Below, one piece after another: positions 4,059 to 7,233 of a stretch of 64,000 bases of DNA. A model generated the notes under the pieces. That model was not told the DNA's origin. It made no database searches and saw nothing but the letters and a program-made list of their open reading frames with translations. Position numbers and translations under genes: made by a program. The stretch is from Nitrososphaerota archaeon (lineage in GTDB: Archaea; Thermoproteota; Nitrososphaeria; Nitrososphaerales; Nitrosopumilaceae): positions 7,674 through 71,673 of the forward strand of contig JAGWHQ010000004.1 of NCBI GenBank assembly GCA_028866655.1, read 5' to 3'. Each line of letters starts with the position of its first letter. The stretch's first letter is position 1.

Positions 4059-5183
4059 ATGTTAGAAAAAACTGTGCTTGTCATTTTTCCATCTATCTAT
4101 ACCTTGAATAAAATAAACAATCTTGCAACAAATGTCTCAAAAATTCTCAAGATGAAAAATCAACGTCATGATGGTGTAAGAAAAAATGAATCACTTGTCA
4201 TTGTAGAAGCAGTTGATCCAGTTCTAGCTTCATCTGCAGTAAATCTCTTATTTGGAATAGATAGAATTGCAATTGCAAAAGAGGTAGACAATAACTTTGA
4301 TTCTGTCTTGTCAGCCATTACAAATACTGCTTTGAGTTTGCTCTTAAAAGGCGAAAAATTTTATATCAAAGTTGAAGGAAAGACAAAAAAATTCCTAGCA
4401 AAAGATTTGGAAATTGCGGCAACCGGGATGCTGGTGGAGAAGAGTATGCATCTTGAGGTAAAACCTGGTTCAGAATCAAACCATGATAGACTCGTATATG
4501 TTTACATCACAGATGCGCATGCCTATGTTTGTATTTTTGTGGACAAGGGATTAAGCGGCATTCCATATAACTCACAAAAAGAAAAAATCCTATGTTGTAT
4601 CCATGATGAGCTTTCTGCGATAGCATGTCTTCAAACCATAAAGATGGGTTTTGAGGTAAAGATATTGATTTGTTATCATAATGAATCAGATTTGCTCAAA
4701 TTAGCGAAGATCATAAACAAAATACTACCAAGAATTATTGAAGAAAATGTTACTCTTCACATCTGTAAGATGAGTGGATCTACAGTAACACCAACTGCAA
4801 TTGCCACAATAACCCAAGTGATGATAGCAATAGCATCAAAGGAAAAGATTGGGAGAATCTCTTTGGGTATATCTCCAATGATCTTTCCAGCATCATTTTG
4901 TGAATACAATGCAAACTTGGTATTTCAGAACAAGATGATTCCATGGTTTTCTCTTTCTGGCATAGATTCTGGAATTTTTGAAAATGCAAAGGAGATTGGA
5001 TTAGAAAAATATATTACAAATTTGGAAAATCTTTGCAAGAAACATCCCAACTACGAGAAAATTTCCATGTCTGAGATATCAAGACATGCAACTAGTACAC
5101 TAAAAACTCTCAAATGCATTCAAGTTATTGCGGGTCCAAAAAATATACATGATATAATTGACTCATTAAAATCAAATCATTGA
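4059..5183 (+). CDS. ThiI-like THUMP-domain protein with degenerate PP-loop
   Basis: ThiI architecture (N-terminal domain, THUMP, 'KGLSGIP' linker) but SGGxDS position reads HDELS. Confidence 0.7.
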   Translation: MLEKTVLVIFPSIYTLNKINNLATNVSKILKMKNQRHDGVRKNESLVIVEAVDPVLASSAVNLLFGIDRIAIAKEVDNNFDSVLSAITNTALSLLLKGEKFYIKVEGKTKKFLAKDLEIAATGMLVEKSMHLEVKPGSESNHDRLVYVYITDAHAYVCIFVDKGLSGIPYNSQKEKILCCIHDELSAIACLQTIKMGFEVKILICYHNESDLLKLAKIINKILPRIIEENVTLHICKMSGSTVTPTAIATITQVMIAIASKEKIGRISLGISPMIFPASFCEYNANLVFQNKMIPWFSLSGIDSGIFENAKEIGLEKYITNLENLCKKHPNYEKISMSEISRHATSTLKTLKCIQVIAGPKNIHDIIDSLKSNH

Positions 5184-5214: not shown

Positions 5215-6447
5215 ATGAAGAAGATTGGAGGATTCATCTATCCTTGGGGAAATGGTCATTTTACAAGAATGATGCATCTTGATAATACAATTCAAGACAT
5301 GCTGAAAGATGACATTGAGATGCATTACACAAGTAGTGGTGAGATTTATCAAAAACTATTACAAAAATTTCCCCAGAAAAAAGATGCAATCCACAATATT
5401 GAGATGCCAACACCAATAGATGGTAAAAAGGGTCCCAGCATTGTTTTATCTTCACTTAATTTCCTTTTACCAATATCTGGAAGACCCCCTTTACTTTCAG
5501 TTGTAACCAACTATTTGAAAAAGGAAGCAAGACTTTACAATAGTCAAAAATTTGACCTTGTCGTAAATGATGGTGATGTAGGATCAAACGCAATTGCTCA
5601 ACGAAGAAACATCAAGTGTGTTTTTATTACAAACCAGTTTAGGCCAAAGCTCTGGACCTCTAGATTTTATCTTTATCCCGGAGTACTATATGTATCAAAA
5701 AATATTGAAAAAGCAACAAAGATAGTAGTTGCAGATTCTCCTCCACCTTATACCATATGCGAGTATAATCTCAATTTTCCTGAAAGATTAAAGGAAAAAG
5801 TCGTGTATGCAGGTCATTTTTCAAATGGCATCATGATACATTCCAAGCCGAAATCTAATTTAGAGAAGATAATTGAAAATGTAGATAGTTTTGGATATTG
5901 GATGATAACAGGAAACAAGTCTACAAAGAAAATAACTCTAGAAAATTACAAAAAAGCTTTTTCCAGTTTGGAGATGAGAGAAGAGAGAAGAATAATTTCA
6001 CATGCAAGTGCCGATCCATCTCTGGATAAAGTTTGGGGAAAGGACGGAAAAACATATTCTATTTTAGAAGCATTAGAAAAAAAGATAGATTGGATTCAGA
6101 TAGACATAGGATTTTTGTCAGAACAGGAAAAAGACACTGTTCTTAATTTGTGTAAATATGCAGTGATAAATGGCTCACATACAGCAATGGGAGAGATATT
6201 AGGAGGAAAAGCAAAACCAATCATAGGAATACCAGTCTATGACGAGCACACTAATCAAATAAAGTGGGCACAAGATAGGAATCTGGGAATTCTGGCTACA
6301 ACCGTTAAACAGACTGTCAAAGCAGTTTCTCTAATACACAATGATTACAACAAGTACCAAGAAAATCTTTTGGAATTTTCAAGAAATTATAGTACAGGCG
6401 GTACAAAGAATACAGTAAAAATAATCTCCGAGATGTTAGAAAACTAG
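5215..6447 (+). CDS. GT-B glycosyltransferase (GT28/MurG-like)
   Basis: N-terminal GNGHFTR, C-terminal INGSHTAMGE...PVYDEH donor-binding pattern. Confidence 0.75.
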   Translation: MKKIGGFIYPWGNGHFTRMMHLDNTIQDMLKDDIEMHYTSSGEIYQKLLQKFPQKKDAIHNIEMPTPIDGKKGPSIVLSSLNFLLPISGRPPLLSVVTNYLKKEARLYNSQKFDLVVNDGDVGSNAIAQRRNIKCVFITNQFRPKLWTSRFYLYPGVLYVSKNIEKATKIVVADSPPPYTICEYNLNFPERLKEKVVYAGHFSNGIMIHSKPKSNLEKIIENVDSFGYWMITGNKSTKKITLENYKKAFSSLEMREERRIISHASADPSLDKVWGKDGKTYSILEALEKKIDWIQIDIGFLSEQEKDTVLNLCKYAVINGSHTAMGEILGGKAKPIIGIPVYDEHTNQIKWAQDRNLGILATTVKQTVKAVSLIHNDYNKYQENLLEFSRNYSTGGTKNTVKIISEMLEN

Positions 6448-6480
6448 AAAGAATTATAATTTTTTAATTTTTAATACATA

Positions 6481-6556
6481 GTTCTGGTACGCGGCATTTT
6501 AGATGGGCGAACTGACCTTTTAGGGATGAAGACATAGACCGCGTACCAGAAACTGA
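6481..6556 (+). ncRNA. Candidate structured RNA: 13-bp stem with apical C'/D'-type K-loop (H/ACA-like)
   Basis: Perfect inverted repeat TTCTGGTACGCGG (6482-6494)/CCGCGTACCAGAA (6539-6551); CTGA 6512-6515 and GGGATGA 6523-6529; TTATAATT at 6455-6462. Confidence 0.45.
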
Positions 6557-6594
6557 CCAAAAGCTTTTATGGATAACTTTGATGATCGCCGTCG

Positions 6595-6816
6595 TTGACT
6601 GAATGTCCCGAATGTGCAGCCAAAGAAGTGGTGGTAGAAATGAAATTTGATGCCAACACTAAACACTTCATTTGCAAAAAATGTGGTTTGTTTGCTACTA
6701 GGGAACAAGTAAGTGATATCAGATATAGATTGAACAAGCGAGAGAAAACACGTGAAGACAAGCATGATGAATATCGTGATTGGTGGACAACAAGTAAGAA
6801 AGACAAACAGGGCTAA
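6595..6816 (+). CDS. Small zinc-ribbon protein
   Basis: CPEC...CKKC, 73 aa, TTG start. Confidence 0.75.
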   Translation: MTECPECAAKEVVVEMKFDANTKHFICKKCGLFATREQVSDIRYRLNKREKTREDKHDEYRDWWTTSKKDKQG

Positions 6817-6831
6817 TTACAGTGAGTCATA

Positions 6832-7233
6832 ATGGGAAAAGAAAAAGAAATTCCAAAATGGGTACAAGATGAGATAAAGGATGCCAAATTTGGCAAGCCA
6901 GAGTCTTTTACAAGAACTGGATACATACTTGAGATTTATGAAAAAGATATGAAGATTGATTCTCAACTTTATGAGGCCATAGAAGATGGAAGAAAGATAG
7001 TAGAAGGAATGAATTTGCCAAAGAAGACCAAACCTGCAGATCTTATGAAGGGAGTTGTCTATGAATTTACAATAAATTCATCAAAGGCGCCGTTAAGCAA
7101 AAAAGTTATCGAGTTTCTGAAAAAAGAAATGGAAATTGACATGGATGCAATTTATCAGTTTGAATTAACAAAACTTGAACTAATGGATGTAGACTCGGAT
7201 TCTTCAGGAGAAGAAGAATCCGAAGAAGAATAG
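6832..7233 (+). CDS. Conserved hypothetical protein with acidic tail
   Basis: Clean 133-aa ORF co-oriented with the zinc-ribbon gene. Confidence 0.65.
   Translation: MGKEKEIPKWVQDEIKDAKFGKPESFTRTGYILEIYEKDMKIDSQLYEAIEDGRKIVEGMNLPKKTKPADLMKGVVYEFTINSSKAPLSKKVIEFLKKEMEIDMDAIYQFELTKLELMDVDSDSSGEEESEEE

What the first reader, a model, noticed from the sequence alone, without database searches (positions are those of the whole stretch)
6455..6560. Candidate K-loop hairpin RNA (H/ACA-like) between the glycosyltransferase and zinc-ribbon genes
Seen: a perfect GC-rich 13-bp inverted repeat around a 44-nt interior containing CTGA(6512)...GGGATGA(6523), which forms a C'/D'-type K-loop (tandem G-A pairs). 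AACTGACC occurs twice (6510, 6551). A TATA-like TTATAATT at 6455-6462 would start transcription near 6485, giving a 9-bp lower stem followed by AGA (6548-6550). Established: archaeal H/ACA guides are hairpins with an L7Ae-bound K-turn/K-loop and a 3' ANA box. Inference: a pseudouridylation guide or another L7Ae-binding RNA; the upper stem is weak.
Basis: partly seen in the sequence, partly recalled or inferred. Interest (0 to 1): 0.55.

Follow-up and report, generated by a model that had tools for sequence, protein, structure and literature searches.

The report
One-K-turn rRNA methylation guide RNA
This is a real, deeply conserved small RNA gene of ammonia-oxidising archaea whose kink-turn hairpin and 8-9-base antisense stretch fit a box C/D-type guide for ribose methylation of C1402, a cytidine in the 16S rRNA decoding centre that is methylated in bacteria and eukaryotes; it has one kink-turn and a long closing helix instead of the usual two-motif layout.

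Summary
The inverted repeat is real: 13 bp in this genome, with an 11-bp core kept in relatives. It closes a single-copy small RNA gene with its own BRE/TATA. The gene is found in 79 of 80 Nitrosopumilaceae sampled, in Nitrososphaeraceae, in three non-ammonia-oxidiser families of the class, and weakly in one family outside the class. The closing helix covaries at 16 of 18 pairs.

Inside is a canonical K-turn: box D CUGA (6512-6515), a 2-bp stem and loop, and box C AUGAAGA (6526-6532).

The invariant 8-mer directly upstream (6502-6509) is the exact complement of 16S rRNA 1400-1407. That is the only such site in a relative's rRNA operon. By the box D +5 rule, G6507 pairs with C1402, which is Cm1402 in E. 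coli and equals yeast Cm1639 (snR70) and human Cm1703.

In other classes of the phylum the same guide, in the same register, sits before the 3' box D of sRNAs, one of which resembles known archaeal C/D families. Fibrillarin, Nop5 and L7Ae genes are present.

No H/ACA feature holds: no ACA, no upper stem, and a variable 3' pocket strand.

Verdict: a new architectural variant of a known kind, a single-K-turn, permuted box C/D guide. Methylation itself is untested.

The parts
6448..6462 (+). Promoter: purine-rich BRE-like AAAGAA (6448-6453) followed by TATA-like TTATAATT (6455-6462). It predicts a start near 6484-6486.
   Evidence: Invariant in about 20 genomes of the genus. A TATA-like 8-mer lies 29-32 nt upstream of the helix in 27 of 57 relatives, with an A/T peak at -31 to -24. 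The start site itself is inferred, not mapped.
6484..6494 (+). Closing helix P1, 5' arm. The conserved core is 11 nt; in this genome pairing extends to 6482.
   Evidence: Inverted repeat. 16 of 18 helix pairs show changes on both sides across 57 sequences; 90% of cells are paired against 24-45% when the partner is slid.
6495..6501 (+). Variable single-stranded linker. Position 6501 can extend the guide duplex in most relatives (C or U opposite 16S G1408); it is A in this genus.
   Evidence: Alignments. Position 6501 is C 78, U 12, A 19 among 109 distinct copies.
6502..6509 (+). Antisense (guide) element GAUGGGCG, the complement of 16S rRNA 1400-1407 (E. coli numbering). G6507 is the fifth nucleotide upstream of box D and pairs with C1402.
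   Evidence: Invariant except Y at 6504, where U or C both pair with G1405. There is a single complementary site in the rRNA operon of congener G014, at 16S position 1340. That site gives the best duplex in rRNA scans.
6510..6511 (+). Two-nucleotide spacer (AA) between guide and box D.
   Evidence: The same 2-nt spacing between GGGCG and box D is seen in the sRNAs of other classes that carry this guide.
6512..6515 (+). Box D (CUGA; CNGA in the family), the non-bulged strand of the K-turn.
   Evidence: C, G and A are invariant and position 2 is free. C6512 pairs with G6531 in 57 of 57 sequences.
6516..6524 (+). K-turn C stem (C6516-G6524, C6517-G6523) with a 5-nt loop (6518-6522).
   Evidence: CC/GG is invariant. 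The loop is replaced by GNRA tetraloops or by longer helices with compensatory changes in relatives.
6525..6532 (+). K-turn bulged strand. The 3-nt bulge is G-A-U (6525-6527), followed by sheared G6528 and A6529, then A6530, G6531, A6532. Box C is AUGAAGA (6526-6532); one relative (G027) has AUGAUGA.
   Evidence: The RAUGANGA consensus is conserved in all copies. The geometry is assigned from the established K-turn and box C/D rules, so it is inference.
6533..6538 (+). Variable 3' linker (6-11 nt in relatives; loosely YNAAAGU).
   Evidence: Alignments.
6539..6549 (+). Closing helix P1, 3' arm. Pairing extends to 6551 in this genome.
6565..6568 (+). First T run after the helix; likely transcription stop. 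It overlaps the TATA-like element of the downstream zinc-ribbon gene.
   Evidence: Read from the sequence. Most Nitrosopumilaceae have TTTT directly after the helix. Termination is inferred.

Best explanation
Window 6484 to about 6568 (+) encodes a small RNA that works as a box C/D-type guide for 2'-O-methylation of 16S rRNA C1402 (E. coli numbering) in the decoding centre.

Proposed mechanism:
1. L7Ae binds the single K-turn formed by box D (6512-6515) and box C (6526-6532). The K-turn's canonical stem is closed by a short hairpin.
2. Nop5-fibrillarin docks on that complex.
3. The 8-nt antisense element 6502-6509 (9 nt in most relatives) pairs with 16S 1400-1407(8).
4. Fibrillarin methylates the ribose of the nucleotide paired to the fifth base upstream of box D, which is C1402.

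The layout differs from the usual C - guide - D' - C' - guide - D order. Here a long Watson-Crick helix (P1) holds the RNA ends and takes the place of the second (C'/D') motif. The C/D motif is closed by a loop, as in a circular permutation.

Shown: the gene, its conservation, the helices, the K-turn consensus, the complementarity and its register, and the presence of the protein genes.
Inferred: protein binding, methylation, and the exact RNA ends.
For: 1. A real, ancient, single-copy gene.
- One copy in the own genome.
- The sequence pattern is found once per genome in 167 of 401 genomes of the order.
- The covariance model finds it in 107 of 151 genomes of the class: Nitrosopumilaceae 79/80, f15 3/3, f24 8/10, f26 13/17, f27 2/2.
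- Weak hits with the same layout occur in one family outside the class.

2. Structure.
- P1 has compensatory changes at 16 of 18 pairs.
- The hairpin stem covaries.
- 90.2% of cells are paired, against 76.6% in shuffles and 24-45% in slid controls.

3. K-turn. The strands CNGA and RAUGANGA match box D and box C, including the 4b-4n G-C pair in 57 of 57 sequences.

4. Guide.
- 6502-6509 is invariant apart from U/C at 6504, and both bases pair with G1405.
- Its complement occurs once in the 16S-23S operon of congener G014, at the decoding-centre sequence.
- The 16S site, including G1408, is identical in 8 genomes from 4 families.
- It is the best rRNA duplex for 4 of 5 lineage-specific guides and second for the fifth.

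5. Register. The fifth nucleotide upstream of box D pairs with C1402. E. coli Cm1402 equals yeast Cm1639 (guide snR70) and human Cm1703 (PMC2794176). Archaeal sR12 is predicted to guide the same site (PMC3511168).

6. Other classes. The same guide with the same 2-nt spacing to CUGA is found in 99 of 201 genomes of the phylum. There it lies at the 3' end of sRNAs. One of these matches Rfam archaeal C/D families at E about 1e-3, below the gathering score.

7. Machinery. Fibrillarin and Nop5 (adjacent genes) and L7Ae are encoded in this genome.

8. Promoter. A conserved BRE/TATA sits at the right distance.

9. Expression. Contigs of four RNA-library studies cover the locus; this is weak evidence.
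Against: - The duplex is short: 8 bp here (7 Watson-Crick plus 1 G.U) and 9 bp in most relatives. Positions 1-2 upstream of box D are unpaired in this genus.
- There is no second K-turn and no 12-nt symmetric spacing. From my own knowledge of in-vitro work, archaeal C/D RNPs are thought to need these for full activity.
- The 3b.3n position of the K-turn is free rather than U.U.
- No data show that C1402 is ribose-methylated in these archaea.
- The RNA-library contigs also cover the promoter and run into the downstream gene, so they may be DNA carry-over or read-through. They do not define a discrete transcript.
- Invariance of the guide cannot be told apart from invariance imposed by a protein partner, because the rRNA target never varies.
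- Three families of the class gave no covariance-model hit (f9, f22, f25), although two of them show the 16S site.
Confidence: 0.7

Rival explanations
1. An L7Ae/K-turn RNA that base-pairs with the 16S decoding-centre strand without directing methylation. It would act as a folding or processing chaperone for helix 44 during small-subunit assembly (U3/U14-like), or within some other RNP.
For: The same complementarity as in the main reading. The atypical one-K-turn layout could be poor at recruiting an active fibrillarin pair. No methylation data exist.
Against: The register places C1402 exactly at box D +5. The same guide and spacing occur in the sRNAs of other classes, one of which resembles known archaeal C/D families. 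Box C and box D are conserved beyond what L7Ae alone needs.
Confidence: 0.12
2. A cis-acting 5' leader of the zinc-ribbon gene mRNA: an L7Ae-responsive or autoregulatory K-turn element, like the L7Ae leader described in Sulfolobus.
For: The RNA lies upstream, on the same strand, of the CPEC zinc-ribbon gene in Nitrosopumilaceae and most Nitrososphaeraceae. RNA-library contigs bridge the RNA and the start of the gene.
Against: In five other families the same RNA is followed by tRNA-Ala instead, while the zinc-ribbon gene lies elsewhere. In some Nitrosopumilaceae the two are 1-38 kb apart. A second BRE/TATA-like element and a T run separate them here. A leader role does not explain the invariant anti-16S 8-mer.
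Confidence: 0.07
3. An element tied to tRNA-Ala: a guide for a tRNA-Ala modification, or a structured pre-tRNA leader that helps L7Ae-containing RNase P.
For: The RNA lies 4-50 nt upstream of tRNA-Ala (CGC or UGC) on the same strand in 23 of 28 loci examined outside the two large ammonia-oxidiser families.
Against: Predicted duplexes with the cognate tRNA-Ala fall at different places in different lineages, and only 5-7 bp are shared. In this genome and its family no tRNA follows the RNA. The linkage is explained by co-transcription and 3' processing.
Confidence: 0.05
4. An archaeal H/ACA pseudouridylation guide.
For: A hairpin with a closing helix, an internal loop and a K-turn oriented as in archaeal H/ACA RNAs. 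AGA occurs at the 3' foot of the helix in many copies.
Against: That AGA is base-paired and covaries. Nothing conserved follows the helix. No upper stem can be drawn between the loop and the K-turn in any lineage. The 3' loop strand varies in length and sequence. No two-sided rRNA target exists for the conserved strand.
Confidence: 0.03
5. A chance palindrome, or merely the terminator hairpin of the upstream glycosyltransferase gene.
For: It lies 35 nt after that gene's stop codon.
Against: It is conserved across a whole class in different gene neighbourhoods, with covariation and its own promoter.
Confidence: 0.01

Closest known systems
Archaeal box C/D sRNA sR12 (Pyrococcus, Sulfolobus) and the sRNAs found here in other Thermoproteota classes that carry the same guide
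   Same: The same predicted target, the 16S position equivalent to yeast Cm1639 and E. coli C1402 (PMC3511168). The same antisense core and the same 2-nt spacing to box D. Presumably the same L7Ae-Nop5-fibrillarin machinery.
   Different: In those sRNAs an internal K-turn hairpin lies before the guide, and the guide lies directly before a CUGA at the 3' end, which I read as the terminal box D. The pairing of that box with a 5' box C was not confirmed. Here the guide's box D forms the only K-turn, closed by a hairpin. The RNA ends are held by an 11-18-bp Watson-Crick helix where C'/D' would be. No Rfam C/D family matches this RNA. I did not have the sR12 sequences themselves.
Eukaryotic SNORD43 / snR70 (Rfam clan CL00059)
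   Same: Guides for 2'-O-methylation of the same decoding-centre cytidine: Cm1703 in human and Cm1639 in yeast, equal to E. coli 1402 (PMC2794176, PMC3511168). An internal stem-loop between D' and C' is common in eukaryotic snoRNAs.
   Different: They have terminal C/D boxes with a short terminal stem. No sequence or structure homology is demonstrable; the Rfam scan gave no hit.
Engineered half-mer or single-domain box C/D RNAs (one K-turn plus one guide)
   Same: One box C/D K-turn with one antisense element 5' of box D. The review PMC7994747 cites a minimal functional single-domain eukaryotic snoRNA.
   Different: Those are laboratory constructs with a terminal-stem K-turn. This is a natural, conserved gene with permuted connectivity and a long extra helix.
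Archaeal H/ACA guide RNAs
   Same: A hairpin with a K-turn or K-loop bound by L7Ae, with the same strand orientation of the K-turn.
   Different: No ACA, no upper stem, and no two-sided pseudouridylation pocket.
Bacterial RsmI (protein-only Cm1402 methyltransferase)
   Same: The same modified nucleotide and chemistry at the P-site decoding centre (own knowledge, plus the table in PMC2794176).
   Different: A stand-alone enzyme with no guide RNA. I did not test whether this genome has an RsmI homologue.

Membership tests
Box C/D methylation guide RNA | Box C (RUGAUGA) and box D (CUGA) that form a K-turn with tandem sheared G.A pairs | tested here: met
   AUGAAGA (6526-6532) and CUGA (6512-6515). 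The family consensus is RAUGANGA / CNGA. The G-C pair next to the free 3b.3n position is invariant in 57 of 57 sequences. 3b.3n is not U.U.
Box C/D methylation guide RNA | An antisense element directly 5' of box D, complementary to rRNA or tRNA, with the target at the fifth paired position | tested here: met
   6502-6509 pairs with 16S 1400-1407, the only such site in a congener's rRNA operon. G6507 (+5) pairs with C1402. The duplex is only 8-9 bp.
Box C/D methylation guide RNA | A second C'/D' motif, with about 12-nt spacers between motifs (archaeal canon) | tested here: not met
   No second GA/GA motif at the P1 junction in any lineage. The distance from P1 to box D is 15-17 nt, and from box C to P1 6-11 nt.
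Box C/D methylation guide RNA | Boxes C and D brought together by the RNA's 5' and 3' ends (terminal stem) | tested here: not met
   Boxes D and C are joined through a hairpin loop. The ends pair in a separate helix, giving permuted connectivity.
Box C/D methylation guide RNA | Binds L7Ae, Nop5 and fibrillarin and directs 2'-O-methylation | not testable with these tools
   Genes for all three are present in the genome. Binding and activity are untested.
Archaeal H/ACA guide RNA | A single-stranded ACA (ANA) box directly 3' of the lower stem | tested here: not met
   No conserved triplet follows P1. The AGA at 6548-6550 lies inside covarying pairs.
Archaeal H/ACA guide RNA | An upper stem of about 5-6 bp between the pseudouridylation pocket and the K-turn | tested here: not met
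   Apart from the C6512-G6531 pair of the K-turn itself, no pairing is possible between 6502-6511 and 6532-6538 here or in relatives.
Archaeal H/ACA guide RNA | Two pocket strands complementary to a conserved target flanking an unpaired U | tested here: not met
   The 3' strand is variable in length and sequence. No rRNA site matches a 10-mer of the conserved strand.
K-turn (L7Ae-binding) RNA motif | C stem, 3-nt bulge, tandem trans sugar-Hoogsteen G.A/A.G pairs, NC stem | tested here: met
   By sequence rule only: CC/GG stem with covarying extensions, bulge R-A-U, G6528.A6515 and A6529.G6514. The 3-D fold and L7Ae binding are not testable here.

The most novel reading that the evidence does not exclude
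Ammonia-oxidising archaea and their relatives may use a natural single-K-turn, circularly permuted box C/D RNP. It could be their only readily recognisable methylation guide, kept solely for Cm1402. In it, a long helix (perhaps bound by another protein, such as the class-wide zinc-ribbon protein encoded next to it) would replace the second L7Ae-Nop5 site. That would show that the two-motif symmetry is dispensable in vivo. It would also give a minimal C/D particle, and a candidate link between archaeal and eukaryotic guides for this ancient modification.
Probability: 0.2. Interest if true: 0.8.

Novelty: new variant of a known kind. Interest (0 to 1): 0.62.

Why it matters
Ribose methylation of C1402 at the ribosomal P site is found in both bacteria and eukaryotes. 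Bacteria use a protein enzyme; eukaryotes and some archaea use a guide RNA. I found no description or Rfam family of guide RNAs in Nitrososphaeria (Thaumarchaeota), a globally abundant group that includes the nitrifying ammonia oxidisers, although they keep fibrillarin and Nop5.

This locus offers a concrete, testable candidate. It also has an unusual build: one K-turn closed by a hairpin, and a long terminal helix. That bears on how many RNA motifs a C/D particle really needs, and on how guide RNAs are rearranged in evolution.

It also gives annotators a covariance model for a conserved gene that current pipelines miss.

Tried and rejected
- Rfam (whole window at gathering scores; 6350-6700 at E up to 10) gave no relevant family.
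- A 10-nt guide (6502-6511). There was no site with 9 of 10 pairs at a meaningful rRNA position. Perfect complements genome-wide were at chance level in the own genome and in five relatives. This search failed because positions +1 and +2 are unpaired here. The 8-mer search then found the decoding centre.
- A second small hairpin (UUCG / CGAA around 6498-6511). It is not kept in relatives.
- A terminal C/D K-turn at the P1 junction, or a D box after P1. The CUGA at 6553 is not conserved.
- Pairing with the neighbouring tRNA-Ala is inconsistent between lineages.
- A crude regex for canonical C-D'-C'-D sRNAs in the own genome gave 0 strict hits. The 2 relaxed hits were not examined further. A scan for further RNAs of this architecture found only this one. 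Both scans are too crude to prove absence.
- Zinc-ribbon protein. No family scored above cut-off in Pfam or NCBIfam, its homologues are unnamed, and the ESM Atlas gave nothing informative. Its distribution (143 of 151 genomes) is wider than the RNA's, so no strict co-occurrence.
- RNA-library contigs from four studies cover 6428-6751, and none covers 6300-6427. Depth is 2-4, and three contigs include the promoter. They give no usable information on ends or strand.
- Earlier notes of this scan hold nothing on this RNA.

Full report
OBSERVATION

The window holds a perfect 13-bp inverted repeat, 6482-6494 / 6539-6551, around 44 nt. It lies 35 nt after the stop codon of a glycosyltransferase-like ORF (5215-6447) and 44 nt before a 73-codon zinc-ribbon ORF (6595-6816). 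The + strand folds at -28.7 kcal/mol, z = -5.2 against 200 dinucleotide shuffles. No Rfam family matches, even at E = 10. The element is single-copy in its genome.

CONSERVATION AND STRUCTURE

- In about 20 genomes of the same genus, 6484-6549 is almost invariant, and so is the upstream AAAGAA + TTATAATT. The outer two pairs of the repeat, the hairpin loop 6518-6522 and the second AACTGACC (6551) vary.
- A sequence pattern built from the core occurs once per genome in 167 of 401 genomes of the order. The reversed control is almost silent.
- A covariance model (R1) finds one copy in 107 of 151 genomes of the class: Nitrosopumilaceae 79/80, f15 3/3, f24 8/10, f26 13/17, f27 2/2, f21 1/9. It finds none in f9, f22 or f25.
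- Outside the class, only one family gives weak hits, and they have the same layout.
- On 57 distinct sequences the closing helix P1 (9-18 bp) has changes on both sides at 16 of 18 pairs. Overall, 90.2% of cells are paired, against 76.6% in shuffles and 24-45% when partners are slid.
- Between GACC and GGRAUGA, relatives carry GNRA tetraloops or longer helices with compensatory changes.
- A TATA-like element preceded by a purine-rich stretch lies 29-32 nt before P1 in 27 of 57 loci. Most Nitrosopumilaceae have TTTT right after P1.
- It is therefore a separate small RNA gene. The ends are inferred, not mapped.

THE K-TURN

- The strand C6512-N-G-A is followed directly by the stem C6516-C6517.
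- After the loop come G6523-G6524, then three unpaired bases (G-A-U, 6525-6527), then G6528-A6529, a free base, G6531 and A6532.
- By the established K-turn and box C/D rules (own knowledge), this is a canonical K-turn with sheared G6528.A6515 and A6529.G6514 and the pair G6531-C6512.
- The two strands are box D (CNGA) and box C (RAUGANGA; AUGAUGA in relative G027).

THE GUIDE

- The 8 nt at 6502-6509, two bases upstream of box D, are invariant in all copies except U/C at 6504. The tally was partly fixed by the search expression. The alignments show the same invariance, but most copies were found with a pattern that fixes 6505-6509. Only the covariance-model hits test those positions, and there 6509 varies.
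- A first search for a 10-mer target failed.
- The 8-mer is the exact complement of CGCCCGUC. This occurs once in the 16S-23S operon of the complete congener genome G014, at 16S position 1340 within ACACCGCCCGUCG. That is the decoding-centre strand 1396-1408 in E. coli numbering (numbering from own knowledge).
- The same 16S sequence, with G at 1408, is present in eight genomes of four families.
- U or C at 6504 both pair with G1405. Position 6501 is C or U in 90 of 109 copies and can pair with G1408.
- In duplex scans of rRNA, this site is best for four of five lineage-specific guides and second for the fifth.
- Counting from box D, the fifth base is G6507, and it pairs with C1402.
- PMC2794176 equates E. 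coli Cm1402 with yeast Cm1639 (guide snR70) and human Cm1703. PMC3511168 reports that archaeal sR12 is predicted to guide the same site, and places SNORD43/snR70 in the last eukaryotic common ancestor.
- By my estimate, an 8-mer with one two-fold position matches about 0.16 sites by chance in 5.2 kb of rRNA. The chance that the +5 position also lands on one of a handful of sites methylated in more than one domain of life is of the order of 1e-4. This is inference, not a tool result.

LINK TO OTHER C/D sRNAs WITH THE SAME GUIDE

- The guide core followed by two bases and CUGA occurs in 99 of 201 genomes across the phylum.
- In other classes it is the last element before a 3' CUGA, preceded by an internal NNGA-hairpin-UAUGAAG K-turn.
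- One such locus matches Rfam archaeal C/D families sR2 and sR3 at E about 1e-3, below their gathering scores.
- Register and target are thus shared, but the connectivity differs.
- In Nitrososphaeria the guide's own box D forms the only K-turn, closed by a loop. The RNA ends are held by a long helix where C'/D' would be. This is what a circular permutation of such an sRNA would give.
- Circular C/D sRNAs and a permuted SRP RNA are known in archaea (PMC7994747). I have no evidence that this RNA is circularised, and P1 has no bulge-helix-bulge motif.

MACHINERY

The genome encodes fibrillarin and Nop5 side by side, and L7Ae.

NEIGHBOURHOOD

- In f24, f26, f27, f12 and f16 the RNA sits 4-50 nt upstream of tRNA-Ala on the same strand (23 of 28 loci). 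This suggests co-transcription and 3'-end formation by RNase P.
- Pairing with that tRNA is inconsistent.
- In Nitrosopumilaceae and Nitrososphaeraceae the RNA precedes a CPEC zinc-ribbon gene. That gene is present in 143 of 151 genomes of the class, wider than the RNA, and lies elsewhere in the tRNA-linked lineages. The linkage is not obligatory.

EXPRESSION

Contigs from RNA libraries of four independent studies cover 6428-6751 and not 6300-6427. Depth is 2-4 and three of them include the promoter. This shows at most that the locus is present in RNA libraries.

H/ACA TEST

- No conserved single-stranded ANA follows P1. The AGA lies inside covarying pairs.
- No upper stem can be drawn.
- The 3' loop strand varies in length (6-11 nt) and sequence.

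The RNA is not an H/ACA guide.

VERDICT

This is a real, conserved, unannotated RNA gene. It is best read as a single-K-turn, permuted box C/D-type guide for Cm1402 (confidence about 0.7). The main reservations are the short duplex, the missing second motif, and the absence of any methylation or transcript-end data.

UNPUBLISHED GENOMES

Unpublished genomes were flagged by the tools: G011, G012 and G019 (rows L020, L017 and L019) and G283 (tally). They add rows and counts only.

Noticed in passing
window 6595-6816 (+): The zinc-ribbon ORF belongs to an unnamed family (CPEC ... FICKxCG ... DDYLDWWQxSKK). The family is found in 143 of 151 genomes of the class with a profile of 15 members. No Pfam or NCBIfam model scores above cut-off; the weak sub-threshold hits are to TFIIB, Elf1 and Rpr2 zinc ribbons. 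Nearly all copies read begin with TTG or GTG right before the first CxxC.
   Followed up: partly
window 6560-6600 (+): This stretch is almost invariant in the genus. AAAAGC + TTTTATGG looks like a BRE/TATA about 26 nt before the TTG start at 6595, which would suggest a leaderless mRNA. It also contains a nine-codon mini-ORF (ATG 6569 to TGA 6598) overlapping that start. Earlier notes on this genome report nine-codon frames at two other small-RNA loci.
   Followed up: no
window 6832-7233 (+): A 133-aa ORF with an acidic Ser/Glu tail follows the zinc-ribbon gene throughout Nitrosopumilaceae. It has no family in Pfam or NCBIfam.
   Followed up: no
L107-L118, L120-L122, L126, L024-L029, L032, L034: In five other families the RNA is directly followed (4-50 nt, same strand) by tRNA-Ala (CGC or UGC). 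This is a conserved sRNA-tRNA pair that is probably co-transcribed.
   Followed up: partly
L176-L187 (other classes of the phylum): sRNAs carrying the same C1402 guide have an internal NNGA-hairpin-UAUGAAG K-turn. In L185 there are only about 4 nt between a possible 5' GAUGA and that internal NNGA. If that is box C, these are one-guide sRNAs too.
   Followed up: no
L055 (G014:C1:990504-994193): The 23S rRNA match of the congener spans 3690 nt against a 2987-position model. It therefore carries about 700 nt of insertions (expansion segments or an intron), which I did not examine.
   Followed up: no
window 4059-5183 (+) and 5215-6447 (+): The upstream ORFs give only weak family hits: a ThiI-like tRNA 4-thiouridine synthase domain (E = 1e-11, far below cut-off) and an MJ1255-type glycosyltransferase (E = 7e-8, below cut-off).
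   Followed up: no
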